From the sequence record PQ850617.1: a stretch of 64,000 bases of DNA. One strand, 5' to 3'. The translations under genes and the position numbers were made by a program. The stretch comes from Escherichia phage ManiMatter_Bas94. Shown one piece after another: positions 6,766 through 62,972 of the stretch. The notes below the pieces were generated by a model. The model did not search any database and was not told where the DNA came from. It was given only the letters and a program-made list of their open reading frames with translations. Position 1 is the first letter of the stretch. Every line of letters begins with the position of its first letter.

Positions 6766-6984
6766 ATGAAAATGATGAAACAAGCTGCATATGGTTTAGT
6801 TTGTTTAGGTGCAGGTGTTGTGGTGTCAACCGCAGTTCCTGTAGGCGCAGTTCTTCCATTAGTAACTGTCCCTGCTCCAGTAGAGAAACTTAGTTCTCAA
6901 TGTAAGCAGCGAACCATTCAAAATAATCTAGTTGTTATTTGTCCTGATGCTGAATCTAACGCTCTGAGAAAGATACTACCTTAA
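6766..6984 (+). CDS. Small membrane protein, holin candidate
   Basis: 72 aa, long N-terminal hydrophobic stretch, immediately upstream of lysozyme gene. Confidence 0.4.
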   Translation: MKMMKQAAYGLVCLGAGVVVSTAVPVGAVLPLVTVPAPVEKLSSQCKQRTIQNNLVVICPDAESNALRKILP

Positions 6985-7013
6985 TTTAAAGGGACCACAA
7001 AAGGAGGTTAGAA

Positions 7014-7505
7014 ATGGATAACGCCGCATTGCCACCTGTACAACTAAACTTAAGTCCAGCTGGAATGGAATTCATCATGAAGCATGAGGGTATGAGAACC
7101 AAGGCTTATAAAGATTCCGCAGGTATCTGGACGATATGTGTAGGGGCTACGCGCGATATGAATGGTTATCCGGTTAGACAAGGATTAACGTATTCTATAG
7201 AGGATTGTCTAGCTCTGCTAGATAGAGACACACAAGACTCTGTTCGTGCTACTCAGAAGAACATAAAGGTTCCTTTACTAGTTCATGAGTTTGATGCACT
7301 CACTTCTTTCAGCTTCAATGTTGGCAGTGGTGCTTTGAGCACATCTAAGTTAAGGAAGGTTATCAATGGAGAGGTCAAAGGTGATGTATACTCAGAGTTT
7401 CTTCGTTGGGATAAAATTACGGTGAATGGAGAGAAGCAGAGGAGTCAGGGTCTTCATAACAGAAGGGTTGCAGAAGCTGATCTTTACACCGAAGGTAAAT
7501 ATTAA
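7014..7505 (+). CDS. Endolysin, T4-type lysozyme (GH24)
   Basis: FIMKHEGMRTKAYKDSAGIWTICVGAT places the Glu/Asp/Thr catalytic triad as in T4 lysozyme. Confidence 0.8.
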   Translation: MDNAALPPVQLNLSPAGMEFIMKHEGMRTKAYKDSAGIWTICVGATRDMNGYPVRQGLTYSIEDCLALLDRDTQDSVRATQKNIKVPLLVHEFDALTSFSFNVGSGALSTSKLRKVINGEVKGDVYSEFLRWDKITVNGEKQRSQGLHNRRVAEADLYTEGKY

Positions 7506-11353: not shown

Positions 11354-11382
11354 AGGGGCTTCGTGCCCCTTTTATTGTTTTT
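11354..11382 (+). terminator. Rho-independent terminator
   Basis: Hairpin AGGGGC-TTCGT-GCCCCT followed by TTTATTGTTTTT. Confidence 0.6.
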
Positions 11383-11392
11383 GGAGGAACTT

Positions 11393-12361
11393 ATGGGTGC
11401 AGGTGGTTTTCGTAAGAACACTGGTCGCAATAACACCACACTCCCGTACAACGTTGGGTTTCTCAATAATGTACAGGACACAGAAACTTATAACGTAGCT
11501 GTTTATGATGAACTACAGAAAGTCAGCACAGCTACTAACCAAATGTTCCAAGCTATAGATGAAATTCACGAAGAGATTGACGTTCGTATCAAAGCTCTTC
11601 ATGCGATGAATCTACAATTTGATGAGCTTGAGAATAGAATTACTACAGAGATAGAGACAGCTATTGCCGATATCCAAACACAGATGGGGAATCTCTCCAC
11701 TGAAGATATTTGGGATAATTCTGTTCAACCTCCTGTAAAATTAGAAAGCACTGTATCTGGCTTTAAGACGAGTATTGAAGGTAACACGACTAAGATTCAA
11801 ACGGTAGAAGGTATTGTCAACGACCAAGGTCAAGAGATTGCTTTAGTTCAGACAGAGATTCAAAACATTAATGGAAGCCTATCTCAGTATATGAAGCTCT
11901 CTGAGTATGAAGCTACGTGGGGTGTTAACTCTTCTGTTAATGGTCAGTACGCTGGAGTTAAGCTAACTAACAATGGAACAAACAGTCAATTCCAAGTAAC
12001 CGCTAACAAGTTTGTTGTCGGTGATGGTACGACAGGGAATACACCATTTGTGTTTGAGAATGGAAGAGCTAGGATGGAGTTCGCTGATATAAAGAACGTC
12101 AACATCACAACAGCTCAGGTTGCCAACGCTAGGATTCAGTGGGCACAGATTGATAACGTATCCATCTCCAACGCCCAAATTCAGAACTTGTCAGCGGATA
12201 AAATCACTGCTGGTTCTATGTGGGGTTCTAACTGGAGACTTACTGTTGGGGGTGACTTTGTTATGGGCGGCACAGGTGGGGCACAATTGTGGATGAATGG
12301 GAACAGGATAGACTTCTATGATGGAAGTGGTGCTCTGAGAATTAGGATAGGGAGTTGGTGA
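11393..12361 (+). CDS. Hypothetical structural protein (coiled-coil rich)
   Basis: ATG 11393 preceded by GGAGGA; product has extended heptad-like region. Confidence 0.45.
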   Translation: MGAGGFRKNTGRNNTTLPYNVGFLNNVQDTETYNVAVYDELQKVSTATNQMFQAIDEIHEEIDVRIKALHAMNLQFDELENRITTEIETAIADIQTQMGNLSTEDIWDNSVQPPVKLESTVSGFKTSIEGNTTKIQTVEGIVNDQGQEIALVQTEIQNINGSLSQYMKLSEYEATWGVNSSVNGQYAGVKLTNNGTNSQFQVTANKFVVGDGTTGNTPFVFENGRARMEFADIKNVNITTAQVANARIQWAQIDNVSISNAQIQNLSADKITAGSMWGSNWRLTVGGDFVMGGTGGAQLWMNGNRIDFYDGSGALRIRIGSW

Positions 12362-12362: not shown

Positions 12363-13382
12363 ATGGCATATGGAATATGGTGTCAACCGGTAGGTCCGGG
12401 GCCAGCCGCCCCTGCCTCTCTTTTTATAGATAGTAATTTAACATTTCCACAATATCTAGGAGCATACAATATATCTCCTTCGTGGAGTGCTAGAAATGCT
12501 TCTTTTAACGTAGGCTCTTTTGATGGTCAAGGTGAGTTATTAATTGTCCCGACTAGTAGACTTATTCAAGATTATTATGTAGGGACAGATTTAATGCCTA
12601 GTTTTAGTTATGTAACAGGTATAGGGACTTCTGGACAAACAGTAAATATTAACATAGAGCCTGCTGGAGCTAGTGGTAACAATAACAGAAACTTCCCAAT
12701 GTCTTTCCAAGCATATAAACTCTGGCCTAGAGGTAATAGAAGCTACGGAATAACTTTCTCAAACTCAGCAGATTTCTTTTCTATCTCTGATAGTGGGGTT
12801 GTTGGTCAGTGTGTTTGGGCGTACAGAGGGGCTGTAGGAGACGGTTTTACTGTCCCTAATGCTGGCCCCAACGCTCTAGTATTTGCCAACTGGAATCAGG
12901 GTGGGGTGTGTGCTTCTTACAACGCAAGCAACGGTCAAATGATCATAACCCACGATAGATCAAACCAGTCTGGCAGTAACAGAGGTGCAGTAATATATGA
13001 TATGAGAATTGCTGTTTTTGCTAGTGGTGTGGGTGTACCAGAACATAATGGAGGTCTGAATATATACTCTCCCGGAACTACAACTTGTGTATTCTCTACT
13101 TACAGGACTCCGTTTGCTATCAGCAGGTTCTTCCCATCTAGTGGGGGTTATACAGGTCTAGGCATTCCTATGATGTGTATGAATGTCACTAATGGAGCCA
13201 TAACAGCGCAAGGTGGTGGATGGATGTGGGTTCATGAAAGATCTCATACAATGAGTGGTACGTCAGTAGGAACAGGCTTTGGCCCACTCGTGGCTAACTG
13301 GACTGACCGATACCCAATCAACGTTAACATAAACCTAGGATTCAATTACCCAATGTTGGAAGGTTCTTTAATTTATGCATAA
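12363..13382 (+). CDS. Hypothetical structural protein
   Basis: 339-aa ORF tightly coupled to upstream gene. Confidence 0.45.
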   Translation: MAYGIWCQPVGPGPAAPASLFIDSNLTFPQYLGAYNISPSWSARNASFNVGSFDGQGELLIVPTSRLIQDYYVGTDLMPSFSYVTGIGTSGQTVNINIEPAGASGNNNRNFPMSFQAYKLWPRGNRSYGITFSNSADFFSISDSGVVGQCVWAYRGAVGDGFTVPNAGPNALVFANWNQGGVCASYNASNGQMIITHDRSNQSGSNRGAVIYDMRIAVFASGVGVPEHNGGLNIYSPGTTTCVFSTYRTPFAISRFFPSSGGYTGLGIPMMCMNVTNGAITAQGGGWMWVHERSHTMSGTSVGTGFGPLVANWTDRYPINVNINLGFNYPMLEGSLIYA

Positions 13383-24111: not shown

Positions 24112-25282
<1,171 letters not shown>

Positions 25283-25528
25283 AATGCATCTCTTTATAAA
25301 TAGTTTCCGTGTTCTTCTTCCAGTTAGATAAACCGGTAAGAACTCTCTGAGCAACTTCATCAGCTGCCTTGCTTCTTTCAATCTCTAACTCTTGTTGATG
25401 CTTTTCTTTATCCAGATTGTTACTATCTGTTCTGTACTCATTAAACTTCATTCCGCCAAAGAACACCAGAGCAGAGAAGATAACAAATCCTAGATTATCA
25501 CTTAAAGTGCTTTGCATATTGACCCCAA

Positions 25529-51012: not shown

Positions 51013-51023
51013 TATACCAACCT

Positions 51024-51386
51024 CTATTGGTTTTTAATCAACTCAATAGACTTACGGATATAAAGAATATCTCGGAAGTTTCTGTAGTTGTTCATAAATT
51101 GATGCTTCTGGAACTCAGCTTCTTCCAGAGCTTTCTTTGCGTCTGCGTAGTTTTTACGGGCAAGACATACAACCCGCTCTGGTAACATGTTTGCACGATG
51201 GATTAGATACTTGTGAGCTTTCATATTGCTTTGCTCACGAGCAATCTTACCTTTAGCAACTTTGATACCATTTGCAATCCAAGCAAGTTCTTGCTCAAGC
51301 TCATCGTTGGACATTCCACCGAGGTTTGATGCAACCTTGTTCAGAGTTTCAATATTAACGTTGCCCTTAATGGGACGTGTATTCAT
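51024..51386 (-). CDS. Hypothetical protein
   Basis: 120-aa ORF. Confidence 0.4.
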   Translation of the reverse strand: MNTRPIKGNVNIETLNKVASNLGGMSNDELEQELAWIANGIKVAKGKIAREQSNMKAHKYLIHRANMLPERVVCLARKNYADAKKALEEAEFQKHQFMNNYRNFRDILYIRKSIELIKNQ

Positions 51387-51772
51387 ACTTACTCCTGTTG
51401 TTTACACTCGTCAATAACCCACTGATAAGTGGATTGCCCAGAAAAGAAACACTGAATAAATCCAGATGTTCTCTGCGTTACCAGTGCTAGTGCACATATC
51501 ACTACCGCTGCTGCTAGCAGTTTCATATCTAATTTAGACATATTTCCTCTCTTTGAATTTAAAAAAGGACTCTCCGAAAAGAGCCAAACTTTAAATCCAA
51601 AAAAAGATATTACCCAATATCTGTGGATAACCTGCTCTTAAAATATCTATCCGACGGATGTTTGAGGAACACTCCTCGCCCTAGCATCGGCCCCATACGG
51701 GAAATAAATTAAGATTAGGTTAGTTGAGTCAGAATAACTCACATAGCCTTCTCCGGAAGAAGGCTATAGATG

Positions 51773-52006
51773 TTACTCGCCTTTCTTAGCACGATCTTTG
51801 GCAGTTTTGCCAGTGCGGATGCGGTGTGAAACGTTAACCAGAGTGCCACCATCAACTACGGTAACGCTCTTGTTTTTAGCCAGATCAAACACAGCCTTCT
51901 CTGTGCCACCCAAGCGAATTTGCTTAGGTTCACTGAAGGTTTGGGTTGATTTAGATTGGAACTGGAACGGTTGACGGATTGCATCAATTGCACTTACTTT
52001 AGACAT
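51773..52006 (-). CDS. Hypothetical protein
   Basis: 77-aa ORF. Confidence 0.35.
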   Translation of the reverse strand: MSKVSAIDAIRQPFQFQSKSTQTFSEPKQIRLGGTEKAVFDLAKNKSVTVVDGGTLVNVSHRIRTGKTAKDRAKKGE

Positions 52007-52232
52007 AGGGGAAATTCCTTAAAAAATCATGGCTGCGTAGAGGGAATTCCCTACGCAAATTAGGCCGCCTAAAAAGAGGCGTCATAGTACTAAAAGGAGG
52101 AGAGAAGAGGGCTTATTTAGCTACCTTTTTCTGTCCGTTTACGAACCAGATAATTGTTCCATCAGGTTGTCGTTGACCAAAGCCTTTCTGGTTAATCATA
52201 TCGTCATAAGAATATGCTTTACGTCTCATCTG

Positions 52233-52478
52233 TCACTCCTGAACAACTGACATACGAATCATTTCTACCGGAGTGTCACCTTTCATAACACCCAGCACAC
52301 CAGTCAGAAGATTAACTGTAGTAATCCAGTCTTTTTCTACAGAGATTTTGCTGGATACATTGGCAACACGCATATGATACTGAGGTGATGCTGTTCCTCT
52401 CTGAACTACGAAAGGGTTTCCGGGAATAATTGTAGCCAGCGAAACTGTGTTATCTTTAATCTTTGGGATGATTTTCAT
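52233..52478 (-). CDS. Hypothetical protein
   Basis: 81-aa ORF. Confidence 0.35.
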   Translation of the reverse strand: MKIIPKIKDNTVSLATIIPGNPFVVQRGTASPQYHMRVANVSSKISVEKDWITTVNLLTGVLGVMKGDTPVEMIRMSVVQE

Positions 52479-52486
52479 CTTGATTC

Positions 52487-52798
52487 CTATTTAAGTTTAA
52501 GGCTAACATTAAGGTGCATACACGCCCTGTTCTGTACAGCGGCATAACTTCTACCGAGCATGTCTGCCATTCTCTGAATAGGCATGAACCCAGCATTACG
52601 AATAACAAACTGATCTTCTTCTTCCGTCCACTTGACACGTAGAGAAGCCCTTGATATACCAAACTTGGTACAGGCTGTGTTAACAGCATTCTCTGTAACA
52701 TTCATAATCTGAGCAACTTCTTGAACCGAATACTCTTTGATTAGTCTCCGAAGATTTTCAATCTGCATCGGAGTCCATATAGTTCTTCGTGCTTTCAT
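52487..52798 (-). CDS. Hypothetical protein, possible HTH
   Basis: 103-aa ORF. Confidence 0.35.
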   Translation of the reverse strand: MKARRTIWTPMQIENLRRLIKEYSVQEVAQIMNVTENAVNTACTKFGISRASLRVKWTEEEDQFVIRNAGFMPIQRMADMLGRSYAAVQNRACMHLNVSLKLK

Positions 52799-53093
52799 AT
52801 ACCCTCCAATTAAACATTTATATAAGACTTGCTTAGATAAAGATTCAATAAAATAGGGGGAGGGGACGAATCCTCCCTTATCCTATTAATTAGTATTGCA
52901 TGTAAGATCTAACAATCGGTTTCCTTTGTAGGAATAAGCGTTATGCTCATCCAGCACTAAACTCCCGCCCCCTTAGTGGGCTGGGTTATTAAAGGGTAAC
53001 GCCCTTATGGGCTAGTTACGTGAATGTTAGTTTGATAGGAGATCTGAAGTCCTATCTCAAAGGACTCTCGTAAGAATCCTTCACGATAAGCTC

Positions 53094-53381
53094 TTAATAT
53101 ACTAATCCGTGTAAGAGAAACACTCTATTAGTTAACTCTGCTTTAGCTCTGTAATAAGCCTTAGAACCTAACAGGCGGCTCTTAACAAAGAACTTGATGT
53201 CATTGCTTACGTCTTGTATTAAACGCTCCTGTACAGCTTCTGAGGAGCTATTAATTGAATCAATTAACACCTTTGTAGATGTGTAATTCACATCACCACT
53301 CCTTACCGGTTGTAGTTGTAGAGCCACCACACCACTGTGCATCAGATAAGGTTTTAGTCTCCTCATCCATTGCTGCACCAT
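53094..53381 (-). CDS. Hypothetical protein
   Basis: 95-aa ORF. Confidence 0.35.
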   Translation of the reverse strand: MVQQWMRRLKPYLMHSGVVALQLQPVRSGDVNYTSTKVLIDSINSSSEAVQERLIQDVSNDIKFFVKSRLLGSKAYYRAKAELTNRVFLLHGLVY

Positions 53382-53574
53382 TCATGCATGAGATACCATT
53401 GTAACGCATATCAATTTCGCCAGAAGGAACCTTCTCACCTTTATGCCAGCGAGATACACAAATACCTTCCACTGCTACTGCACACCATCCATCAGGACGG
53501 CTCTGTACGCAGCCTGTAAGGGCCACACAGACAATGAAGATACAGATTAAGGATATTACACCACTCCAACTCAT
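53293..53574 (-). CDS. Cys-rich lipoprotein candidate
   Basis: From internal Met: MSWSGVISLICIFIVCVALTGC with lipobox-like LTGC. Confidence 0.35.
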   Translation of the reverse strand: MSWSGVISLICIFIVCVALTGCVQSRPDGWCAVAVEGICVSRWHKGEKVPSGEIDMRYNGISCMNGAAMDEETKTLSDAQWCGGSTTTTGKEW

Positions 53575-53597
53575 AACACACCTCCAAGAGCTTCTAG

Positions 53598-53676
53598 TGA
53601 GGATGACAGGATTTGAACCTGCATACTCCAATTACTTCTTTAACGACCGCTTAGAAGGCGGGGAAGATACATCCTC
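53598..53676 (-). other. tRNA-like element (perfect acceptor stem and T-arm, non-canonical body)
   Basis: Minus strand GAGGATG...GCAGG-TTCAAAT-CCTGT-CATCCTC-A; no 5-bp anticodon stem found by hand. Confidence 0.25.
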
Positions 53677-53717
53677 ATTAAGAATTCTCGTTAAAGCTGG
53701 TTTAAATCACATCAACC

Positions 53718-53969
53718 TCAAGCACAAGCAGGGAGAGTGATGATTTTATACTTGCCATCAAATTCTCCAAACAAACCTAAGAATGTAGGACTATAAGTAC
53801 CAGTACAAACAAACTCATCAAACAGTTCGTTATAGCTAGGCTTAATCTTCCAAGCCCATACATAACCCATCTTGTCAATTGCAATGTAACGAGTGTTTAG
53901 AGGAACAGTCATCATCACACCATCAACTTCGACCACTTTAGTGATTGGTGCAGCTTGGAAGTTTTTCAT
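53718..53969 (-). CDS. Hypothetical protein
   Basis: 83-aa ORF. Confidence 0.35.
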   Translation of the reverse strand: MKNFQAAPITKVVEVDGVMMTVPLNTRYIAIDKMGYVWAWKIKPSYNELFDEFVCTGTYSPTFLGLFGEFDGKYKIITLPACA

Positions 53970-53993
53970 ACTTTACCTTTAATTAAAACAACA

Positions 53994-54018
53994 AAGGCCA
54001 CCCAATCGGGCAGCCTTT
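53994..54018 (-). terminator. Rho-independent terminator (minus strand)
   Basis: RNA hairpin AGGCUGCCC-GAUU-GGGUGGCCU then U-rich; near-identical to hairpin at 31501-31532. Confidence 0.5.
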
Positions 54019-54021
54019 CTT

Positions 54022-54273
54022 TTATTGACTCACACCACGAATCAAATGATTCTGTAGCATTTCATCTTCTGCATTATAAAGGAATGCGAACATCAATTCC
54101 TTAGCCACATCTCTTGAGCAGTTAAGACACTTAGAGATTTGAGCTAGTTGCATATTACGTTCGGTGTGCTCCACTAAGGCAATGCGAATGATCTCTCGCA
54201 TACCTATTACATGGGCTGTTTTAACCGGCATAGGTCCAATTACCTTGCTTGTCACGGATAGTGGACATTGCAT
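54022..54273 (-). CDS. Hypothetical protein
   Basis: 83-aa ORF. Confidence 0.35.
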   Translation of the reverse strand: MQCPLSVTSKVIGPMPVKTAHVIGMREIIRIALVEHTERNMQLAQISKCLNCSRDVAKELMFAFLYNAEDEMLQNHLIRGVSQ

Positions 54274-54661
54274 GAACCCAGAAGCCTTCCAGTTTCAGAG
54301 CACCATTAGTTACTGCATCCATACGTTCAGGGCGGTTCATACGTTTGGTTGATACTTTCATACCTATCTCTCTTTGTTAGTGAAGGCATTATTGCCAGTT
54401 GATATAGCAGATAGCCCTATTAAAAAGGACTACCGACTATCTAAACTGGTGAAGACTCCCTACCCCTAGGAAGTCTCCTGAATCCCAAACCAATATGTAC
54501 CCCTACATATCGGAAAGTCTACCGAAAATTAACAGGTTTTAGTCTAACACCGGATGTTCGAGCAAGCTCTCCCTAGCGGTGTGGCATATGCCTGATTTAA
54601 TAAGTTAATGAGGAACACCCTCACATAGCCCTCTGATAAGCACAAGGGCTATAAGTCGGTG

Positions 54662-54958
54662 TTACTTGTCGGCTTCAATCTCTTGATGCTTAGCTATAGC
54701 TACTCGCAAGTCCTCATTAGCACGAGTAAGGCGTAATACTTCATGGTTGAGATTCTGAAGACGCTTGTTTCTATCTTCAACTTGCGTAATAAGATCATTA
54801 AGAGTTGCTTTAACTTTCTCATTATACATCTCATCCACTCGGACTAGAGATTTGTACATTCTCTCCCAGCTTGCTGCTTTGTTCCTAAGGATAATAAATC
54901 CTATAACGCTGATAGTTAAACAGCTTACAAAAAGGAATTTATATATCTCTAAAGTCAT
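54662..54958 (-). CDS. Membrane-anchored coiled-coil protein
   Basis: N-terminal TM FLFVSCLTISVIGFIIL then heptad-rich region. Confidence 0.4.
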   Translation of the reverse strand: MTLEIYKFLFVSCLTISVIGFIILRNKAASWERMYKSLVRVDEMYNEKVKATLNDLITQVEDRNKRLQNLNHEVLRLTRANEDLRVAIAKHQEIEADK

Positions 54959-55157
54959 ATTATTTACCCTTTATCAGAGATTAAAAGTAATATTATTTAA
55001 GTAAGTTATATTTAGTAAACTTATTTTCTAAGAAATTTTCAAAGGGTCTATATACAGAGCATTACCCATAGTCCCAGAACACTACCATCTTTTTCAATAA
55101 ATTTACTAAGTGGTTGGTTTATAAAGGAATTTAGTTTGTCAAATCTGGCACTAGTGA

Positions 55158-55547
55158 TTATTCCCTAGAGCTATTATCGAACACTAAATCACCACAATAC
55201 ATAGGATTGGCATACCATTTTGGCACCCCTTCGCTCTTACTCTGAAAGTAAGTCCCACTGTACAGCGGAACATAATTCTTCTTAAGGGCACGTTTAGCAA
55301 GTCTCTCGCTTTCTCCAATGGCTTGCTTAGTCATCGGATTTTTATCACGAATCAGCTTTACATAACGTTTATAAGGTTTCTCCTGTTTTAATAGTACCGG
55401 AATCCACTCAAACTGGTTCTTTTGTCTTATCACCTGTTCAGCGGTCAGTTTTCGTTGGGCCATTCTATTTATCACGGTATCCGCAACCATAGCCTTACAT
55501 GCGGTTGGCTGATTCCCTGCCTCATAATAAATAGTCAATGTCAACAT
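55158..55547 (-). CDS. Cell-wall hydrolase-like protein (SleB/CwlJ-type)
   Basis: TIYYEAGNQPTACKAMVADTVINRMAQ resembles the family's N-terminal signature. Confidence 0.45.
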   Translation of the reverse strand: MLTLTIYYEAGNQPTACKAMVADTVINRMAQRKLTAEQVIRQKNQFEWIPVLLKQEKPYKRYVKLIRDKNPMTKQAIGESERLAKRALKKNYVPLYSGTYFQSKSEGVPKWYANPMYCGDLVFDNSSRE

Positions 55548-55801
55548 TAGCTGGGCCGTTGTTATCAGAACTTGCTACCTCCTCTCAGGATAAAACACCT
55601 TTCATGTATGCCTTACTCGAAGCCCTCCTTGTGGCTTTTAGTATGGATTGCTTAGCCTTATTCTTAGCTTCTTCTGTCATTCCATCAAAAACACCGAGCT
55701 TAGTTAGCTCCTTACTAGGAGGCTTATAGGAAGGGTTTAAAGCATTAGATAAATTATGACCATAGGCATGACCACGGCACAATAAAGAAGAAAGATTAAG
55801 C

Positions 55802-56167
55802 CTATGGATTTACACATTGACCGTTACCGGATGCGATTTCATTCATTGACTCATCAAACAAGGTTAGGGATGAGCGCATCAAGTGATCGACCGTGATTTG
55901 TTTACCGGTAGTTTCATTTACCAGTTGAATAGTTTTATCATATGATTGCACATGATCGAAATCATTTACATGCAAAATAATAACTTTAGGTGACTTTTTA
56001 CCAGTCGAATAGTTTTCTATCAAATAGGTGCACTGTAAACCTTCCACCGTATCAGGGGAAAATGTTGCAGCCTTTACACTACCCATAGCCGATAGGAGAA
56101 CGCCCAGCAGTAGAACGACCAGAAAAAAACCTACAACCATTTTAATGATGAATTTAATAAACCACAT
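55802..56167 (-). CDS. Membrane-anchored protein
   Basis: N-terminal TM VVGFFLVVLLLGVLL. Confidence 0.4.
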   Translation of the reverse strand: MWFIKFIIKMVVGFFLVVLLLGVLLSAMGSVKAATFSPDTVEGLQCTYLIENYSTGKKSPKVIILHVNDFDHVQSYDKTIQLVNETTGKQITVDHLMRSSLTLFDESMNEIASGNGQCVNP

Positions 56168-56269
56168 AACTATAAACCTTTTAATCAGAGGATGTAAGAA
56201 TAAAGCATATCAGCGACGAATAACGCCACTGTAACGACGAATAAGCAACGCCAGAAAAATCATTAAGCA

Positions 56270-56515
56270 TCATTTTAATCCGTGATTCAGTAGGTTCGCC
56301 AGTGATAGCCCACCGTCAAAATAAATTGAACGGAAGTCATCGCGGGTAATTTCAATCCCTACAGCAGATAACCAATCTTTGGCCTTTTTAAAATCCATGA
56401 CGCAGAAAGTAACGGTCGGGATTATTACATCACCAGCTTGCAAGCTAAACGCAATAAAAGTATCACACACAAAACAAGAAAAGCCGCTAGACAATTTAAC
56501 TTCTTTGATAGCCAT
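56270..56515 (-). CDS. Small Cys-containing protein, paralog A
   Basis: MAIKEVKLSSGFSCFVCDTFIAF...RDDFRSIYFDG; paralog at 61304-61555. Confidence 0.45.
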   Translation of the reverse strand: MAIKEVKLSSGFSCFVCDTFIAFSLQAGDVIIPTVTFCVMDFKKAKDWLSAVGIEITRDDFRSIYFDGGLSLANLLNHGLK

Positions 56516-56529
56516 AATTCTAACCCTTA

Positions 56530-57018
56530 TTATTTAGCACTGATGCAATTAGCTAGGTTGATGTGTACGGTATAAACCGCATTATTCTCACTATTGTAAA
56601 CCGTGGTGGCAAGCATTGATTCGTTTATCGGGCCATAACTGACTAGATTTGTAACAGCTTTCGCATGTTTGTAACGTTGTACAGTGCCAAATGTAACTAG
56701 TTCGGGATCGTTATCAGTGCGCTTTAATAGCAAATCATCATTGCCCTGATTATCTAGTGTTTTGGTACTAACGACCAGACCATCACGGGAAACGTTACTA
56801 AATTTAACCTTTAAGACGATTTGATTGGTGTCACTATCCGCACCGTTACAGATTAACCATTTGTTAGGTGCATCCTTCACGAACAAACTAGCGGCATTAT
56901 TAGCAGAAGCAGAACTAGCGATAGCGTTGTCAGAAAAAGAAGTTACCAGTGCACTGACACCGATGGCTGTAACCAGTGCATAACTTGCCAGATTAATAGT
57001 CTGCATTACTTTCGCCAT
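56530..57018 (-). CDS. Secreted protein candidate
   Basis: Signal-peptide-like INLASYALVTAIGVSALVTSFS. Confidence 0.4.
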   Translation of the reverse strand: MAKVMQTINLASYALVTAIGVSALVTSFSDNAIASSASANNAASLFVKDAPNKWLICNGADSDTNQIVLKVKFSNVSRDGLVVSTKTLDNQGNDDLLLKRTDNDPELVTFGTVQRYKHAKAVTNLVSYGPINESMLATTVYNSENNAVYTVHINLANCISAK

Positions 57019-57120
57019 TTTTGCTACCCCTTAGATAGAATCAATTAACTATTGCCACTTCTATAATACAAAGACGGTATTCAAGGTTACTACTCATACT
57101 TATACCTCCTGTTTTACGGG

Positions 57121-57148
57121 CATAAAAAAGCCCCAGCCGTAGCCGGGG
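57121..57148 (-). terminator. Rho-independent terminator (minus), distal of a tandem pair
   Basis: RNA hairpin GCCCCGGC-UACG-GCUGGGGC followed by UUUUUUAU. Confidence 0.65.
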
Positions 57149-57210
57149 CAAACCTGAAAGCAACGCATGACCGTTGCTATAAATACACTCGCAAATGCAC
57201 TTACAGCAAC

Positions 57211-57234
57211 GCAAAAAGCCGCTCAAAGGCGGCT
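57211..57234 (-). terminator. Rho-independent terminator (minus), proximal of a tandem pair
   Basis: Hairpin AGCCGCC/GGCGGCT followed by UUUUUG. Confidence 0.5.
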
Positions 57235-57314
57235 ATGTGGAAGCTTCAAATGGGGAGAGGGCACGACGCGGCAGAAAGAGCGTCATAGTACTAAAAGAGG
57301 GGGCTGCATTCCTA

Positions 57315-57758
57315 CTACTTAACCCTTGCTTCTTTGATGGGGTCAATATATTTTTCAACTCCCCACTTATGTTTGCTGTCTGCGTAGAATACATCAGGTG
57401 CGCATTGGCTTGTTTTAGGGAAGGCTTGCGGATCTTTGGTGCTCCCTTTAAACTTCTGTTTACCACGGGTGCGACCATTACAGAAGATTTCTAGTTTCTT
57501 CTCCTCTTCTGTTTTAGCTCCCCCGCTCTTTAATAGTGAACGTTTATGATCAGCTAACAGCAACGCATCAGCACGATGGGTACGATGGCCTACACGCTTG
57601 GGCACACTAGAAGGAATATGAGATTCAGCCTCAGCCCTTGCAGCACGACGCTTTAAACTACGCTTGCTAACATGATTAGTTGCCTTTGGTTTCTCTTTCT
57701 CCAATTCAGAAATAGAAAAACAACGCCCGCCCTTCATGCTGATTTTAGATTTAGCCAC
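57315..57758 (-). CDS. Basic hypothetical protein (early region)
   Basis: 147-aa Lys/Arg-rich ORF; preferred over overlapping 57233-57478. Confidence 0.4.
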   Translation of the reverse strand: MAKSKISMKGGRCFSISELEKEKPKATNHVSKRSLKRRAARAEAESHIPSSVPKRVGHRTHRADALLLADHKRSLLKSGGAKTEEEKKLEIFCNGRTRGKQKFKGSTKDPQAFPKTSQCAPDVFYADSKHKWGVEKYIDPIKEARVK

Positions 57759-57827
57759 TATCTTATTCCTTTCAGTGATAAGTTATATCGGGCAAGCCCA
57801 TCAAGGCGATAGGCTTGAACAAATAAC

Positions 57828-58037
57828 TCAACCAAGTAAACCAAATGATTTCCAACTACGCAGTAAGATCGTACCATCATCCATAGTTACGCATAATTTT
57901 AGTAGTCGCTTACTGGTACTGCTCACCGTTGTGATTCGTCCGGTTGTACATTTACCTTTATTGCTATAAAGATATATAACACGATGGCCTAACAAACGAG
58001 ATGGCGCTTTCTTAAATTCTGAAATGTTAGTGATCAT
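57828..58037 (-). CDS. Hypothetical protein
   Basis: 69-aa ORF. Confidence 0.35.
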   Translation of the reverse strand: MITNISEFKKAPSRLLGHRVIYLYSNKGKCTTGRITTVSSTSKRLLKLCVTMDDGTILLRSWKSFGLLG

Positions 58038-58255
58038 TATCCATATACCTTAACATGATTGATTCGACGTGAATGATGATAAGAAGACTCAACAGCCATT
58101 GCCTTTAATTCTTCTTTTCGTTGGTTAGTGTGTACAATATCCCAATGATTATGATCGTGTTGGCGCTGTAATATCTTACTACATTTGCGATGGTTTCCCG
58201 TGCTGCGACGTTTCTCACAAATAGGACACTTACCAAAATCATTACTGAATATCAT
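58037..58255 (-). CDS. Zinc-finger-like small protein
   Basis: CPICEKRRSTGNHRKC plus His cluster. Confidence 0.35.
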   Translation of the reverse strand: MIFSNDFGKCPICEKRRSTGNHRKCSKILQRQHDHNHWDIVHTNQRKEELKAMAVESSYHHSRRINHVKVYG

Positions 58256-58479
58256 TTTCTCAATCCTAACTTTCTTAAGACACGGCCTAACGTTGTTTCT
58301 TGGGTGATAATATACCTGACCGCTTCACGTTCCAACGTTTCAATCTTCATTGGCGACGGATACCATTCACCGGTAAGCATACACCTATACTCAACGCCAT
58401 ACTTTTTAGATAGGCGGTAATGTTGACCGTTGACAAGGTTCCTATAAATCGTGGTATGCGTCGTTAACATAATCGTCAC
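58252..58479 (-). CDS. Hypothetical protein
   Basis: 75-aa ORF. Confidence 0.35.
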   Translation of the reverse strand: MTIMLTTHTTIYRNLVNGQHYRLSKKYGVEYRCMLTGEWYPSPMKIETLEREAVRYIITQETTLGRVLRKLGLRK

Positions 58480-58582
58480 CTTTGATTAGATTCTTTGATT
58501 AGTACACTGAATCAATGCACTGATAAAAGAAAAGGCGCTACCCGTTAAAGATAGCGCCTCATGTTTATTTAGATTGTCTTAC

Positions 58583-59491
58583 TTATGCCGCCTGACGTGC
58601 CGCCATAATTTCAGCCGCTTTGCGCAATACTTCTTCCTCTTCTGCTTTCGCCGCTTGTTCGGTACGGGTAGCAACCGTTGAAGAGATACGACCGCGCAGA
58701 CTTTCTAACTTCTCTTGCATAGCTGCGATGGTCTTTTCCATTTCATCAGCGTATGAGTCCAGTGATTCTAGTTCCTTGCTCGATGCGTTCATCAGATAAT
58801 CATCAGAGATCGCTACCGTTGAGGCCGTCACTTTCTTGATGAGTGAGTCGAATGACTTCTTAACCTTGCCGACTTCTTCACTTAAGGCAATAGTGTTATC
58901 ACTGGTAGCGCCGTTGCGCTCATCGGCCAACAATTTTGCTTCAATACGGATTGCATTCAAGCGTTCAACTAAAGCGTAAATATCCTGATTAAAATCTTCC
59001 TTGTTTTTCGCCGGTATTTGAAGGTGTGCCGCCACGTTGTCATTGCAACCTTTGTAGAAGTTAGGATTATCCACTTCAATTGCACGACCTAAAGCAAAAT
59101 TCTCGAAAGCATTCGACCAGCGAGCGCGGTTTTGTTCCATTTTGGCCTTAATTTGCGCTTCTTTCGCATCTTCTTTCGCTTTCGCTTCACCTTCCAGATT
59201 AATCCATTTTTTACGACCGTTCGCCGCCTCGGTATTAAACTTGATTGGAGTAAGGAAAGTAATTGCAGTGGCAATAACATCCATATCGCGGAAACGTTCA
59301 GTTAACAGAAAATCGACCGCCGACTGCAATACATCTAATTTCTTGCCGTTGCTGCGGAAGTGCTGCAAATGACCTAACAGAAAGTTAGAAACATCTTGCT
59401 TAATCGCCGCGTTATTGCTACGGATGTTGTTTGCCAGTGCATTGAAACCGGATTCTTTTACCAGATTAAAAACTTTAGCCATGATATTCAC
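58583..59491 (-). CDS. Hypothetical early protein (302 aa, helical)
   Basis: First long ORF downstream of the consensus promoter cluster. Confidence 0.45.
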   Translation of the reverse strand: MNIMAKVFNLVKESGFNALANNIRSNNAAIKQDVSNFLLGHLQHFRSNGKKLDVLQSAVDFLLTERFRDMDVIATAITFLTPIKFNTEAANGRKKWINLEGEAKAKEDAKEAQIKAKMEQNRARWSNAFENFALGRAIEVDNPNFYKGCNDNVAAHLQIPAKNKEDFNQDIYALVERLNAIRIEAKLLADERNGATSDNTIALSEEVGKVKKSFDSLIKKVTASTVAISDDYLMNASSKELESLDSYADEMEKTIAAMQEKLESLRGRISSTVATRTEQAAKAEEEEVLRKAAEIMAARQAA

Positions 59492-60303
59492 CTTTCAATT
59501 ATAAGGGCACTATTGCCCCGCTCGCTATGAGCTTTCAAGCCATTATTGACTTAACTATAAACGCTCACTATAAACGCTTATAGGTAAGCGGAGCGGTCTT
59601 ATCAGGAGTTAACCTTGCCGCTCCCTTATCCGTGATGTTTCATCTGGTATCTTTAATTAGTCGCTATAAATAAAGCCGACTTGATAGCGATGATCAATCA
59701 TCACAATAAGGCCAGTGTGTCCGACTCAATTTAATTACATTACTGTAACCGTCGGCAATATCGTTTACTCTGCTTTCGCTCCCGCCTATCCTTTTGTATC
59801 AGCTCTTTATCGCTAGTCATCGCCCACTACGGGATACTATTGCGAAAAAGTCACTAACCGCCTAATATTCCGGCGTTTTATATCTTTCGGCAAGTTTACT
59901 ACACAACACGACTATGTACTTTCATCCTAAGACGAATATCAAGCCGCTCACGTCGTAAACGTTCACACTAAAACCTTATTGTTAAATAGCAATTTGCCAC
60001 TTTTTAACCGTTCGCCGCCGCCCTCAATTGGGCGTTAATTCGTCGGGATTGTCTACCCTGATCAGTTTCTTTCATTGTAGCGCCTTTTTAGCTAGGCCGC
60101 CGCTACCCATTAACCGTGGGCGATTAGTTTTAGCCTTGCGTGCACTCAATGATTCCGCTTACCAGTGGTGACGTTTCCAGTTAAGGGATTGTAAAGCTGT
60201 TTACCCTGATAATTTAGGGAGCTTTACGCCGTTTTATCTGGTATGTTTTCCGATGGTCATTATCATCCAACATATGCAACCGATATAGGGGAACGTTTAA
60301 ATT

Positions 60304-60315
60304 ATTAAAGAGCGG
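60304..60315. repeat. TTTAAAGAGCGG motif, copy 1 of 5
   Basis: Others at 60542-60555, 60677-60690, 60789-60801, 61009-61022. Confidence 0.6.
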
Positions 60316-60573
60316 TAAATCTGTCAGTGTGCTTTCTCACACTACGCAACTGTTAGCCGTTGTGTCGCTTTTTCACTGAAGCGGTGATTTGCTTAGTGAC
60401 TTGTGCTTATTATGAATCATTTTGCTTCCGCCGTCAATCACTTTTTTAATCTTTTTTCATCGTTCCCGCTGTTGGGAAGATATATCAATCAGCTATATTT
60501 GATTGAAGATTAAGCGATCAGGCTTGAACTTATGATTCATATTTTTAAAGAGCGGTTTTTCTGACTTGTGATC

Positions 60574-60602
60574 AGTATAAACTTACTTTCTCACGTTGTC
60601 AA
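60574..60602 (-). promoter_or_regulatory. Sigma70-type promoter P1
   Basis: Minus strand TTGACA-N17-TATACT. Confidence 0.55.
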
Positions 60603-60721
60603 TCTCTTTTTTATCGTCTTCTTTGATTCTCTTCCCTTATCTCGCGTGAATCTATGCGAAAGGGCAAGACGATAAATTTTTAAAGAGCGGGATTTTTTAA
60701 GTCATCGCTGACCTTGTACAC

Positions 60722-60801
60722 TCATTATAGGTTAGGCTTTTTCCGGTGTCAATATTCTTTTTCAGAATATTTTCACTTTCTAGCCTGATTTTTAAAGAGC
60801 G
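60722..60801. repeat. ~80-bp direct repeat, copy 1
   Basis: CATTATAGGTTAGGCTTTT...TTTTCACTTTCTAGCCT..TTTTTAAAGAGCG, ~90% identical to 60942-61022. Confidence 0.7.
60724..60752 (-). promoter_or_regulatory. Sigma70-type consensus promoter P2
   Basis: Minus strand TTGACA-N17-TATAAT, AT-rich upstream; inside 80-bp repeat. Confidence 0.65.
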
Positions 60802-60941
60802 TTTAAAGCTGTATGGCTCCCATAACACCACTTGATGATCAGTTAACCTACGATCATTCAGGACTATAGTACCCGCTTAGTTGCGTCTGACTTGCTTCAC
60901 TCACTAGGGAGTTACTTGAGCGGTCATCTTGTCTTTCTAAG

Positions 60942-61022
60942 CTCATTATAGGTTAGGCTTTTCAGTTGTCAAATACTTTTTCAAGTATTTTTTCACTTTC
61001 TAGCCTACTTTTTAAAGAGCGG
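60942..61022. repeat. ~80-bp direct repeat, copy 2
   Basis: See copy 1. Confidence 0.7.
60945..60972 (-). promoter_or_regulatory. Sigma70-type consensus promoter P3
   Basis: Minus strand TTGACA-N16-TATAAT; second copy of 80-bp repeat. Confidence 0.65.
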
Positions 61023-61303
61023 GGCAATTTCTTGCCTTGTATGTTTTACATCGTACCCGATGGAAATGAGTATACGCGAGCCTTTAGAAAGTGCAATAGG
61101 GGAAAGCAAATTATTTTAAACTTTTTCACTGTAGGGAAGATAGAAGAGCGGGCTGACGTGGTACACCATAGGAAACGGCTTGTAAAGCGATAATAGGCGG
61201 CCTAAAACGCACCACAATGAGCTAAAAGGGGATAAGGTATATAATCACCTTAGAAAAGAAAAAAGCGCCTTTATTGGCGCTTATAGGGATGATTTAAAGT
61301 TTT

Positions 61304-62969: not shown

Positions 62970-62972
62970 TTT

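What the first reader, a model, noticed from the sequence alone, without database searches (positions are those of the whole stretch)
53293..57018. Cluster of envelope-directed proteins in the early/middle region, including a SleB-like hydrolase
Within ~4 kb are a Cys-rich lipoprotein candidate, a TM coiled-coil protein, a membrane-anchored protein, a signal-peptide protein and a SleB/CwlJ-like cell-wall hydrolase lacking a signal peptide. Early expression of envelope-targeted proteins suggests superinfection exclusion, receptor masking or entry-associated wall remodelling rather than end-stage lysis.
Basis: inference. Interest (0 to 1): 0.35.

Follow-up and report, generated by a model that had tools for sequence, protein, structure and literature searches.

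The report
Kuravirus LptD-blocking lipoprotein among early genes
The gene "cluster" is a loose mix of early accessory genes of an E. coli Kuravirus phage, but its lipoprotein is a clear relative of a protein that blocks the outer-membrane LPS exporter LptD against reinfection, and the phage also carries the matching LptD-binding tail protein, which suggests an unrecognised receptor for this phage group.

Summary
The window is a Kuravirus (phiEco32/SU10 group) E. coli podophage, 97% identical to Bas92. All five described proteins exist at the stated coordinates on the minus strand, in the arm that is early in phiEco32/SU10.

The grouping is weak. It is not significant after scan correction (p≈0.11–0.17), and in SU10 the same genes lie in two transcription units.

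- **Lipoprotein (53293–53574):** an end-to-end homolog of Rtp45, the superinfection-exclusion lipoprotein solved bound to the periplasmic face of LptDE (PDB 9RPS, E=3e-16; Pfam PF24052).
- **Matching receptor-binding protein:** the late tail module holds a DUF6453 protein (12363–13382). It matches the Oekolampad LptD-binding protein (9RPT, E=1e-10) and the Pfam family of Rtp44. It sits just after a tail needle carrying the GpJ tip domain.
- **Inference:** the lipoprotein masks LptD, and Kuraviruses may use LptD as a receptor. No paper in the searched library says this.
- **SleB-like protein (55158–55547):** it keeps the catalytic Glu and has no leader. Its homolog is the only endolysin identified in Privateer, so an auxiliary holin-dependent endolysin is the likelier role.
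- **Other three proteins:** two are secreted small β-proteins and one is a membrane-anchored coiled coil. Their functions are unassigned.

The parts
53293..53574 (-). Rtp45-family superinfection-exclusion lipoprotein precursor. 93 aa, lipobox LTGC with lipidated Cys22, Val at +2 (outer-membrane sorting), C31-C39 disulfide pair. Carries an extra Cys-containing insert at about residues 61-86.
   Evidence: PF24052 1.1e-35 and phrog_4281. PDB 9RPS chain D E=3.3e-16. Alignments with Rtp45, TheodorHerzl gp26, a Webervirus lipoprotein and 14 cluster representatives.
12363..13382 (+). DUF6453 protein (SU10 gp19 by gene order). Homolog of the LptD-binding receptor-binding proteins Rtp44 and RBP-Oekolampad, and the inferred partner of the lipoprotein.
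   Evidence: PF20051 4e-26 covering 18-290 of 291 profile positions; phrog_1265 full length. PDB 9RPT/9RPW/9RQI chain C E=9.9e-11. BLASTP against Rtp44 E=8e-11. Reciprocal tblastn hits in Kuraviruses.
11363..12361 (+). Tail needle (SU10 gp18). Its C-terminal half carries the Phage_Tail_Tip domain found at the distal end of GpJ-like central fibres of LptD-targeting siphophages.
   Evidence: PF09327 3.3e-26. The same domain lies at the C-terminus of Rtp43 and TheodorHerzl gp24. BLASTP against Rtp43 residues 905-1107, E=8e-7.
54662..54958 (-). Inner-membrane protein with one N-terminal TM helix and a coiled-coil domain predicted to face the cytoplasm. SU10 gp115. Mis-named 'DNA helicase' in PHROG-based annotation. 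Function unknown.
55158..55547 (-). Leaderless SleB/CwlJ-type cell-wall hydrolase domain (Hydrolase_2). Catalytic Glu9 is retained. SU10 gp116. Translation may start at an in-frame CTG (or the adjacent ATA) just upstream of the ATG.
   Evidence: PF07486 6.9e-8. Profile hit to SleB structures 4F55/4FET with the Glu aligned. Invariant E-A-G, N-R and QxNQFxW motifs. 99-100% amino-acid identity in 57 phage records. Ribosome-binding-site position.
55802..56167 (-). Secreted small all-beta protein. Signal peptide residues 1-33 with cleavage at VKA|A, mature protein about 88 aa, invariant Cys46 and Cys118. SU10 gp121. Mis-named 'terminase'. Function unknown.
56530..57018 (-). Secreted protein. Signal peptide with cleavage at ...AIA|S, a variable Pro/Ala/Thr linker, then an 8-stranded lipocalin-like beta-barrel with invariant Cys57 and Cys158. 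The family diversifies (64-98% identity). Function unknown.
56270..56515 (-). 81-aa protein with no hydrophobic segment or signal (predicted cytoplasmic), mis-named 'polymerase'. Paralog of 61304-61555 (69% identity). Part of the translocated early operon.
55585..55782 (-). Small basic ORF (65 aa from TTG, or 31 aa from ATG). Annotated in Bas92. Its 5' part matches the segment downstream of SU10 gp121, under that operon's annotated terminator. Coding status uncertain.
53718..54361 (-). Small ORFs with no hydrophobic segment or signal (predicted cytoplasmic): 53718-53969 (83 aa), 54022-54273 (83 aa) and the overlapping 54221-54361 (46 aa). No envelope signals. Function unknown.
53598..53676 (-). 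tRNA-like remnant with anticodon-loop TCT, immediately upstream of the lipoprotein gene.
   Evidence: Rfam RF00005, 33.4 bits. Not called by ARAGORN. Aligns to a tRNA remnant in Bas92 and SU10.
60574..60972 (-). Three near-perfect sigma-70 promoters (12, 12 and 11 of 12 positions) that head the leftward early transcription unit.
   Evidence: They match the three early promoters described between SU10 genes 120 and 121.
6766..7505 (+). Canonical late lysis genes: holin (6766-6984) and T4-type lysozyme endolysin (7014-7505). Shown here because they argue that the region under study is not the lysis cassette.
   Evidence: phrog_11161 holin; PF00959 1.9e-32.
25022..25517 (-). Overlapping spanin pair: Rz-like i-spanin (25167-25517) and o-spanin (25022-25282, lipobox TSAC).
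   Evidence: phrog_1152 and phrog_2425. Translation of both frames.

Best explanation
The stretch 53293-57018 is part of the leftward early (host-takeover) arm of a Kuravirus. It is a mosaic of accessory genes, not one functional module.

One gene can be assigned a mechanism: the lipoprotein at 53293-53574.
- Shown: it is an end-to-end homolog of Rtp45.
- Inferred pathway: it is made early, exported by Sec, lipidated at Cys22, sorted by Lol to the inner leaflet of the outer membrane (Val at +2), and oxidised to a C31-C39 disulfide.
- Inferred action: it binds LptDE from the periplasm and pushes its conserved beta-hairpin (residues about 40-60) into the LptD lumen. Extracellular loop 4 is then displaced, and DUF6453-type receptor-binding proteins can no longer dock.

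The same genome encodes such a DUF6453 protein (gp19, 12363-13382) directly after a tail needle whose C-terminus is homologous to the GpJ tip. The most economical reading is that the lipoprotein masks the phage's own terminal receptor on infected cells and on lysis debris. It would also exclude competing LptD-dependent siphophages.

The SleB-like protein is a leaderless, catalytically intact muralytic enzyme. It is most likely an auxiliary or ancestral holin-dependent endolysin, not an entry or exclusion factor.

The other three proteins are genuinely envelope-directed but unassigned. Two are Sec-secreted, disulfide-bearing beta-proteins: 55802-56167, and the lipocalin-like 56530-57018. The third is the N-terminally anchored coiled-coil protein at 54662-54958.
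For: Identity of the phage and early position.

Lipoprotein:
- PF24052, 121.9 bits.
- phmmer hit to PDB 9RPS chain D (Rtp45), E=3.3e-16 over residues 6-74.
- Invariant lipobox Cys, the C31/C39 pair equivalent to the Rtp45 C30-C38 disulfide, the hairpin segment V..W..G..VP.GE.D.RY.G, and the C-terminal G-K-E-W.
- Rtp45 structure and exclusion mechanism.

Partner receptor-binding protein:
- PF20051, 92.5 bits, and phrog_1265, the same families as Rtp44.
- PDB 9RPT chain C, E=9.9e-11 over residues 22-316.
- Tail needle with PF09327, as in the C-termini of Rtp43 and TheodorHerzl gp24.
- The taxon breakdowns of lipoprotein hits and Rtp44 hits across 50,697 phage records are closely parallel.
- Klebsiella Weberviruses also carry both genes unlinked.

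Hydrolase:
-.
- Separate complete lysis set: holin, PF00959 lysozyme, Rz/Rz1.
- Its homolog is the only endolysin identified in Privateer.

Secreted proteins.
Against: - No experiment links any Kuravirus to LptD. Published models give O-antigen (long fibres) and LPS core (short fibres) as receptors.
- gp19 was not among the 34 proteins detected by mass spectrometry of SU10 particles, although the 3-copy tail needle was. It is not mentioned in the SU10 cryo-EM paper.
- gp19 is only 22-28% identical to the siphophage LptD binders, below the 30% used in the literature to define receptor-specific families.
- The lipoprotein has a 17-33-residue insert absent from Rtp45, and its signal peptide has no basic residue in the n-region.
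- The lipoprotein is 91% identical between this phage and SU10 while gp19 is 45% identical, so the two do not co-vary.
- Early expression is inferred from homologs. Terminator-like hairpins lie between the promoters and the region.
Confidence: 0.6

Rival explanations
1. Heterotypic exclusion only. The lipoprotein blocks LptD solely to keep competing LptD-dependent siphophages out of the infected cell. Kuraviruses themselves do not use LptD, and gp19 has another receptor or a non-adsorption role.
For: gp19 was not detected in SU10 virion proteomics. Published receptor data point to O-antigen and LPS core. Lipoprotein and gp19 do not co-vary. gp19 is a distant family member at 22-28% identity.
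Against: It does not explain why all sampled Kuraviruses keep a full-length DUF6453 gene directly after a tail needle with a GpJ-tip domain, in the late structural operon. The two families co-occur across phage taxa, even where they are unlinked.
Confidence: 0.2
2. LptDE inhibition. The lipoprotein is a host-takeover factor that plugs the LPS translocon. This would stop export of new LPS and O-antigen, or weaken the outer membrane, rather than prevent adsorption.
For: In the Rtp45 complex the hairpin protrudes into the LptD lumen and sits between LptE and LptM. The phage depends on O-antigen.
Against: Rtp45 could be co-overexpressed with LptDE to good yield, which argues against strong toxicity. 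Blocking new export would not remove existing O-antigen within one lytic cycle, an argument made. This reading leaves the DUF6453 gene unexplained.
Confidence: 0.08
3. The five genes form a concerted early envelope module in which the SleB-like enzyme remodels the wall for entry or exclusion, together with the membrane and secreted proteins.
For: Four proteins with export signals and one peptidoglycan-hydrolase domain lie within 3.7 kb of an early arm. The naive Fisher test gives p=0.005.
Against: The scan-corrected p is 0.11-0.17. In SU10 the genes lie in two transcription units, up to 9 kb apart. The hydrolase has no export signal. A virion SLT transglycosylase already serves entry. The hydrolase homolog is the annotated endolysin in Privateer.
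Confidence: 0.05
4. The SleB-like protein has a second, non-lytic role, in the way T7 lysozyme also regulates T7 RNA polymerase. This would explain its unusual conservation.
For: It is 99-100% identical at protein level in 57 records. It is 98.5% identical at nucleotide level to SU10 (pS 0.06), where neighbouring genes are 83-94% (pS 0.16-0.56). It sits in the early arm, although a dedicated late endolysin exists.
Against: Catalytic and fold motifs are all intact. Low synonymous divergence can equally reflect recent recombination. No partner has been identified.
Confidence: 0.15

Closest known systems
Rtp45 of phage Rtp (PDB 9RPS), and the superinfection-exclusion lipoprotein of Oekolampad/Bas18. 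Both belong to Pfam PF24052.
   Same: Same Pfam and PHROG family. Lipobox, conserved disulfide pair, hairpin segment and C-terminal KEW motif are shared. Same host species, and therefore the same LptDE target.
   Different: Here the gene sits in a podovirus. It is 41 kb from the DUF6453 gene, not adjacent and divergent to it downstream of gpJ. It lies in the early arm, carries a 17-33-residue insert with two extra Cys, and has no basic residue in the signal peptide's n-region.
Rtp44 and RBP-Oekolampad (PDB 9RPT/9RQI). Pfam DUF6453, LptD-binding receptor-binding proteins of small siphophages.
   Same: gp19 (12363-13382) matches over nearly the full length. It follows a gene whose product ends in the GpJ tail-tip domain.
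   Different: Only 22-28% identity. It is encoded on the same strand as the needle gene. It is not shown to be in the virion. It is hypervariable within Kuraviruses, at 45% identity to SU10.
Llp of phage T5 (blocks FhuA) and Cor of T1/phi80.
   Same: A small lipoprotein, made early by a virulent phage, that disables the phage's own outer-membrane receptor from the periplasmic side.
   Different: No sequence similarity: nothing but 9RPS was found in the PDB at E<=0.1. The target differs, and the mechanism is steric loop displacement rather than allostery.
SleB/CwlJ spore-cortex lytic enzymes (PDB 4F55, 4FET), and the Hydrolase_2 endolysin of phage Privateer (homolog annotated 'putative endolysin' in 7-11).
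   Same: PF07486 catalytic domain with the conserved Glu. The protein is leaderless, like canonical endolysins.
   Different: It lacks the N-terminal peptidoglycan-binding domain of SleB. In Kuraviruses it coexists with a late holin and a T4-type lysozyme.
Two-component spanins (Rz/Rz1).
   Same: A TM coiled-coil protein plus an outer-membrane lipoprotein superficially resemble an i-spanin/o-spanin pair.
   Different: The two genes are 1.1 kb apart with other genes between them. The predicted topology of the TM protein is reversed. A genuine overlapping Rz/Rz1 pair exists at 25022-25517.

Membership tests
Rtp45-type superinfection-exclusion lipoproteins (Pfam PF24052) | Scores above the Pfam gathering threshold over the full profile | tested here: met
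   121.9 bits against a cut-off of 27, profile positions 1-80 of 80. Rtp45 itself scores 128 bits.
Rtp45-type superinfection-exclusion lipoproteins (Pfam PF24052) | Signal peptide ending in a lipobox, with non-Asp at +2 (outer-membrane lipoprotein) | tested here: met
   LTGC at residues 19-22, then Val. The Cys is invariant in 16 family members. Caveat: there is no basic residue in the n-region.
Rtp45-type superinfection-exclusion lipoproteins (Pfam PF24052) | Conserved disulfide pair (Rtp45 C30-C38) and the hairpin segment that enters the LptD lumen | tested here: met
   C31 and C39 are invariant. The segment V40-G60 shares W, G, VP, GE, D and R with Rtp45. Which Rtp45 residues form the hairpin is my inference from the description.
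Rtp45-type superinfection-exclusion lipoproteins (Pfam PF24052) | Encoded next to the cognate DUF6453 receptor-binding-protein gene, downstream of gpJ | tested here: not met
   The DUF6453 gene is at 12363-13382, 41 kb away, in the late operon. Weberviruses also have the two genes unlinked.
Rtp45-type superinfection-exclusion lipoproteins (Pfam PF24052) | Binds the periplasmic face of LptDE and abolishes phage adsorption | not testable with these tools
   Needs expression, plating and binding assays. AF3 is reported to mispredict these complexes.
DUF6453 LptD-binding receptor-binding proteins (Pfam PF20051), for gp19 | Full-length family match, and a match to the solved LptD binder | tested here: met
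   92.5 bits against a cut-off of 25, profile positions 18-290 of 291. 9RPT chain C, E=9.9e-11.
DUF6453 LptD-binding receptor-binding proteins (Pfam PF20051), for gp19 | More than 30% identity to receptor-typed members (the literature criterion for receptor-specific families) | tested here: not met
   22-28% identity to siphophage members. The criterion is quoted.
DUF6453 LptD-binding receptor-binding proteins (Pfam PF20051), for gp19 | Virion component at the distal tip of the central fibre or needle | tested here: inconclusive
   The gene follows a needle gene carrying the GpJ tip domain. But gp19 is absent from the SU10 particle proteome and from the cryo-EM description.
SleB/CwlJ cell-wall hydrolases (Pfam PF07486) | Domain match above threshold, with the catalytic Glu conserved | tested here: met
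   33.5 bits against a cut-off of 27. Glu9 is invariant in 7 diverse homologs and aligns with the Glu of the YGESRGE motif in 4F55/4FET. That this Glu is the catalytic residue comes from prior knowledge of SleB.
SleB/CwlJ cell-wall hydrolases (Pfam PF07486) | N-terminal peptidoglycan-binding domain and export signal, as in SleB proper | tested here: not met
   The protein is the catalytic domain alone. At most 8 extra codons are available upstream.
Two-component spanin (for the TM coiled-coil protein plus the lipoprotein) | Adjacent, overlapping or embedded gene pair. N-in/C-out i-spanin. The only such pair in the genome. | tested here: not met
   The genes are 1.1 kb apart. The charge bias predicts a cytoplasmic coiled coil. 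A separate Rz/Rz1 pair is present.
T5 Llp / Cor lipoproteins | Sequence homology to Llp | tested here: not met
   No PDB chain other than 9RPS matched at a meaningful E-value. The resemblance is functional only.

The most novel reading that the evidence does not exclude
Kuraviruses (Gordonclarkvirinae) use the essential LPS translocon LptD as their terminal receptor. gp19, a DUF6453 protein, would sit at the tip of the tail needle, whose C-terminus is a GpJ tip domain. It would dock into LptD after O-antigen binding by the long fibres. The early lipoprotein would be the cognate receptor mask.

On this reading, the three-part host-recognition cassette of small siphophages (J tip, receptor-binding protein, exclusion lipoprotein) has been transplanted onto a podovirus and split between late and early transcription units.
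Probability: 0.45. Interest if true: 0.7.

Novelty: new variant of a known kind. Interest (0 to 1): 0.55.

Why it matters
Kuraviruses are common, broad-host-range coliphages that resist restriction-modification systems, and they are considered for therapy. Their terminal receptor is currently thought to be the LPS core.

A matched pair of genes, an LptD-type receptor-binding protein and an LptD-blocking lipoprotein, gives a concrete alternative that existing strains can test. The needed tools are the lptD loop mutants and a plasmid-borne lipoprotein. LptD is essential and conserved, so a receptor there bears on resistance evolution and on phage steering.

The finding would also show that the receptor module of small siphoviruses moves between tail morphotypes. 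It would show that the exclusion gene can be uncoupled from the receptor-binding-protein gene and placed under early control. That counters the recent suggestion that O-antigen-dependent virulent phages lack receptor-disabling factors.

On the ordinary side, the result corrects misleading annotations carried in many Kuravirus records: 'membrane protein/moron', 'DNA helicase', 'terminase' and 'polymerase'.

Tried and rejected
- **Lysis cassette.** Rejected: holin, PF00959 lysozyme and an overlapping Rz/Rz1 pair lie elsewhere.
- **TM coiled-coil protein plus lipoprotein as a spanin pair.** Rejected on gene arrangement and predicted topology.
- **SAR or hidden signal on the hydrolase.** Only 8 upstream codons are available, and the hydrophobic residues belong to the catalytic helix.
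- **First test for a receptor-binding-protein partner.** A local tblastn of the window with TheodorHerzl gp25 found nothing. The partner appeared only when Rtp44 was searched against all phages, and it was then confirmed by Pfam and PDB.
- **Single-sequence PDB search with the hydrolase.** Nothing found; a profile was needed.
- **Structure prediction and fold search for the two secreted proteins.** Models were confident, but matches were generic: lipocalin-like at TM about 0.4 for one, none for the other.
- **NCBIfam.** Nothing useful.
- **Word-indexed homolog searches.** These returned only Kuravirus-group relatives for the hydrolase and both secreted proteins.
- **Lipoprotein structure prediction.** Not attempted, because the Rtp45 paper reports that AF3 mispredicts these proteins and their complexes.
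- **phiEco32 middle/late promoter motif TAATGTATA.** No hit within the 53293-57018 region, and not enriched window-wide (21 hits found against 20.3 expected).
- **ARAGORN.** It called no tRNA; Rfam found a remnant.

Full report
**What the window is**

A megablast of 52000-58500 finds 109 phage records. The best is Escherichia phage JacquesWildberger_Bas92 at 97% identity, followed by SU10, phiEco32-like phages and other Gordonclarkvirinae/Kuravirus records. Genes from about 22.3 to 62 kb run on the minus strand.

The stretch under study corresponds to SU10 CDS 104-125. The SU10 genome paper assigns these to the early class by analogy with phiEco32. The phiEco32 temporal classes were determined experimentally. 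Three near-perfect sigma-70 promoters lie upstream on the minus strand at 60574-60972. They match the three early promoters described between SU10 genes 120 and 121.

**Checking the observation**

All five proteins are present.

| Protein | Coordinates | Evidence |
|---|---|---|
| Lipoprotein | 53293-53574 | ATG behind GGAGG; lipobox LTGC at residues 19-22, then Val; four further Cys in the mature part |
| TM coiled-coil protein | 54662-54958 | One hydrophobic helix (3-27); clear heptad pattern; flanking charges put the coiled coil in the cytoplasm |
| 121-aa protein | 55802-56167 | Hydrophobic N-terminus; A33-A34 after V-K invariant; relatives carry classical short signal peptides such as MKIKFAVCAALFAVSSVSHA\|A |
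| 162-aa protein | 56530-57018 | Conserved signal peptide ending AIA\|S, a variable Pro/Ala/Thr linker, invariant Cys57/Cys158 |
| SleB-like protein | 55158-55547 | PF07486 above threshold; no TM segment; at most eight more in-frame codons upstream |

The 121-aa protein is therefore more likely a secreted 88-aa protein with invariant Cys46/Cys118 than a membrane anchor.

Is the clustering more than chance?
- With rough gene calls, about 4 of 9 genes here have hydrophobic N-termini, against about 6 of 91 elsewhere. Fisher's test gives p=0.005.
- A permutation that allows for picking the best 9-gene window gives p=0.17 genome-wide and p=0.11 within the early arm.
- The arrangement is not conserved. 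In SU10 the homologs of 55585-57018 form the separate far-upstream early operon (gp125-gp121 plus terminator). The lipoprotein (gp104) lies 3 kb from gp115/gp116.
- In this phage and in Bas92 that operon has been moved to between gp117 and gp116. A diverged paralog of the 81-aa gene stays at 61304-61555.

So the individual predictions hold. The 'cluster' is a lineage-specific juxtaposition.

**Not the lysis cassette**

The phage has a late holin (6766-6984) and a T4-type lysozyme (7014-7505, PF00959). It has an overlapping Rz/Rz1 spanin pair (25022-25517; o-spanin lipobox TSAC). It also has a virion SLT transglycosylase (13392-14174).

**The lipoprotein**

Pfam places it in PF24052 'Phage lipoprotein family' at 121.9 bits. 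A search of PDB sequences gives one real hit: 9RPS chain D, E=3.3e-16. That chain is Rtp45, the superinfection-exclusion lipoprotein of siphophage Rtp.

What the Rtp45 structure shows:
- It was solved by cryo-EM bound to Shigella LptDE. It sits at the periplasmic outer-membrane interface, between LptE and LptM.
- It has a C30-C38 disulfide and sends a long hairpin up the LptD lumen.
- It displaces extracellular loop 4 by up to 20 Å, so the phage receptor-binding protein cannot bind.

Alignments with Rtp45, the Dhillonvirus TheodorHerzl gp26 and a Webervirus lipoprotein show homology from the lipobox to the C-terminal G-K-E-W. The RPDGWCA motif, the second Cys and V..W..G..VP.GE.D.R..G are conserved. 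With 14 further cluster representatives added, the lipobox Cys, G29, both disulfide Cys and G60 remain invariant.

The Kuravirus proteins differ by a 17-33-residue insert with two more Cys, and by lacking a basic residue before the hydrophobic core.

The family is small. Only 17 representatives reach E<=1e-3 among 1.84 billion 50%-identity clusters.

In Rtp and Dhillonviruses the gene lies next to the receptor-binding-protein gene downstream of gpJ. That locus was linked genetically to LptD.

**The partner**

A tblastn of Rtp44, the Rtp receptor-binding protein, against all phage records unexpectedly returned Kuraviruses (E down to 5e-11), at about 18-21 kb in records that start at the same genome end as Bas92.

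In the window this is 12363-13382 (339 aa; Bas92_0015, annotated 'membrane protein, moron').
- It matches Pfam DUF6453 at 92.5 bits over almost the whole profile, and phrog_1265 end to end. These are the families of Rtp44 and TheodorHerzl gp25.
- It hits the solved LptD-binding protein of Oekolampad (PDB 9RPT/9RPW/9RQI chain C) at E=9.9e-11 over residues 22-316.
- By gene order and product sizes it is SU10 gp19. It lies between the tail needle gp18 (11363-12361) and the ejection-protein transglycosylase gp20.

The tail needle itself carries PF09327 Phage_Tail_Tip. That domain ends the GpJ-like fibres of Rtp and TheodorHerzl. The needle also aligns with the last ~230 residues of Rtp43, E=8e-7.

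All three parts of the small-siphophage recognition cassette are therefore present: J tip, DUF6453 receptor-binding protein, and PF24052 lipoprotein. The lipoprotein has been moved to the early arm.

Across 50,697 phage records, the taxon breakdowns of the two families are closely parallel:

| Taxon label | Lipoprotein hits | Rtp44 hits |
|---|---|---|
| Escherichia | 271 | 277 |
| Klebsiella | 53 | 64 |
| Shigella | 25 | 30 |
| Campylobacter | 7 | 7 |
| Dhillonvirus | 4 | 4 |
| Veterinaerplatzvirus | 4 | 4 |

Klebsiella Weberviruses also carry both genes unlinked.

**Mechanism proposed**

Shown: homology, motifs and gene positions.

Inferred:
1. The host RNA polymerase transcribes the lipoprotein gene early.
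2. The precursor is exported, lipidated and sorted to the outer membrane.
3. It binds LptDE as Rtp45 does, so DUF6453 proteins cannot dock.
4. Because the phage carries such a protein next to its needle, the simplest reading is that LptD is a terminal receptor of Kuraviruses. The lipoprotein would protect progeny from infected cells and debris, as Llp does for T5. It would also shut out LptD-dependent siphophages.

A podovirus that uses O-antigen first and LptD second has a precedent in Pseudomonas phage DEV.

**Caveats**

- Published Kuravirus models name O-antigen and LPS core.
- gp19 was not among the SU10 particle proteins found by mass spectrometry, although the three-copy needle was.
- gp19 is not mentioned in the SU10 structure paper or its held supplements.
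- gp19 is only 22-28% identical to typed LptD binders.
- gp19 is hypervariable among Kuraviruses (45% identity to SU10), while the lipoprotein is 91% identical.
- No paper in the searchable library connects Kuraviruses with LptD. The library's only mention of DUF6453 is in a gene table for a Drexlerviridae phage.

**The SleB-like protein**

Seven homologs down to 30% identity keep T3, E9-A-G, N-R and QxNQFxW. A profile built from them hits the SleB structures 4F55 and 4FET, with Glu9 aligned to the Glu of YGESRGE. That this Glu is catalytic comes from prior knowledge of SleB.

The protein has no export signal.
- Homologs in the related prolate podophages 7-11 and Privateer sit in a comparable position and are annotated as endolysin.
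- The Privateer paper found no other endolysin. [quoted passage not shown]
- The likeliest role is therefore an auxiliary or ancestral holin-dependent endolysin.

One oddity remains. The gene is 98.5% identical in nucleotides to SU10 (pS 0.06), where neighbours are 83-94%. Fifty-seven records are at least 99% identical in protein. This could reflect recent recombination or an additional constraint.

**The remaining proteins**

AlphaFold models of the two secreted proteins are confident in the mature parts (pLDDT about 90).
- The 162-aa protein is an eight-stranded barrel with only generic lipocalin-like matches (best E=1e-3, TM about 0.4). In the viral library it matches only uncharacterised phage proteins.
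- The 121-aa protein has no significant match.
- Both families are confined to Kuravirus-like phages. The 162-aa family diversifies (64-98% identity).
- NCBIfam adds nothing.

Their functions, and that of the TM coiled-coil protein, stay open.

**Verdict**

Its framing as a functional cluster is not.
It is probably wrong for the hydrolase.
- The lipoprotein is a new variant of a known kind. The inference that Kuraviruses engage LptD is new as far as the held literature shows, and it can be tested with existing strains.

Noticed in passing
window 12363-13382 (+): The gp19-like DUF6453 gene is hypervariable within Kuraviruses. Only 6 phage records are at least 90% identical, and SU10 and most others are 42-46% identical over the full length. 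PHROG-based annotation calls it 'membrane protein / moron', although no TM segment is predicted.
   Followed up: partly
window 53598-53676 (-): A tRNA-like element (Rfam tRNA, 33.4 bits against a cut-off of 29; anticodon loop TCT) that ARAGORN does not call. It lacks a normal D-arm and has a long insert before the T-arm. It aligns to a tRNA remnant in Bas92 and SU10. The intact tRNA-Arg and the HNH endonuclease gene that Bas92 carries here are absent from the window.
   Followed up: partly
window 55548-55600 (-): The strong ribosome-binding site GAGGAGG lies 30 nt before the ATG of the SleB-like gene, but 9 nt before an in-frame CTG (followed by ATA). Relatives at 69-74% identity are 136 aa long and carry the corresponding 7-residue N-terminal extension. 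A non-ATG start seems likely.
   Followed up: partly
window 54678-55584: The TM coiled-coil and SleB-like segment is an island of high nucleotide identity to SU10 (96% for the segment; 98.5% and pS 0.06 for the hydrolase gene). It lies within a region otherwise 70-94% identical.
   Followed up: partly
window 55585-57018 and 61304-61729: The block of signal-peptide protein, 81-aa protein and 121-aa secreted protein, plus the segment that in SU10 carries the operon's annotated terminator, equals the far-upstream early operon of SU10 (gp125-gp121). Here it is inserted between the gp117 and gp116 homologs. A 69%-identical paralog of the 81-aa gene and a 48-aa TM ORF remain at the original site. 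The SU10 counterpart of the 162-aa protein is annotated at 290 aa.
   Followed up: partly
window 51000-64000: Terminator-like hairpins are about three times more frequent than in shuffled sequence (30 found against 10.8 expected). Strong minus-strand examples lie at 58532-58560, 57130-57149 and 53993-54018, inside what is described as one early transcription unit.
   Followed up: no
window 54662-54958, 55802-56167, 56270-56515; L001 8444-8569: Small early proteins carry implausible names in PHROG-derived annotation: 'DNA helicase' (98 aa), 'terminase' (121 aa), 'polymerase' (81 aa) and 'tail protein' (41 aa). These names propagate through many Kuravirus records.
   Followed up: yes
window 51389-51541, 34735-34914, 36840-37040, 61583-61729 (-): Four further very small ORFs (48-66 aa) with strong hydrophobic segments are scattered through the early and middle arms. 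They were not examined.
   Followed up: no
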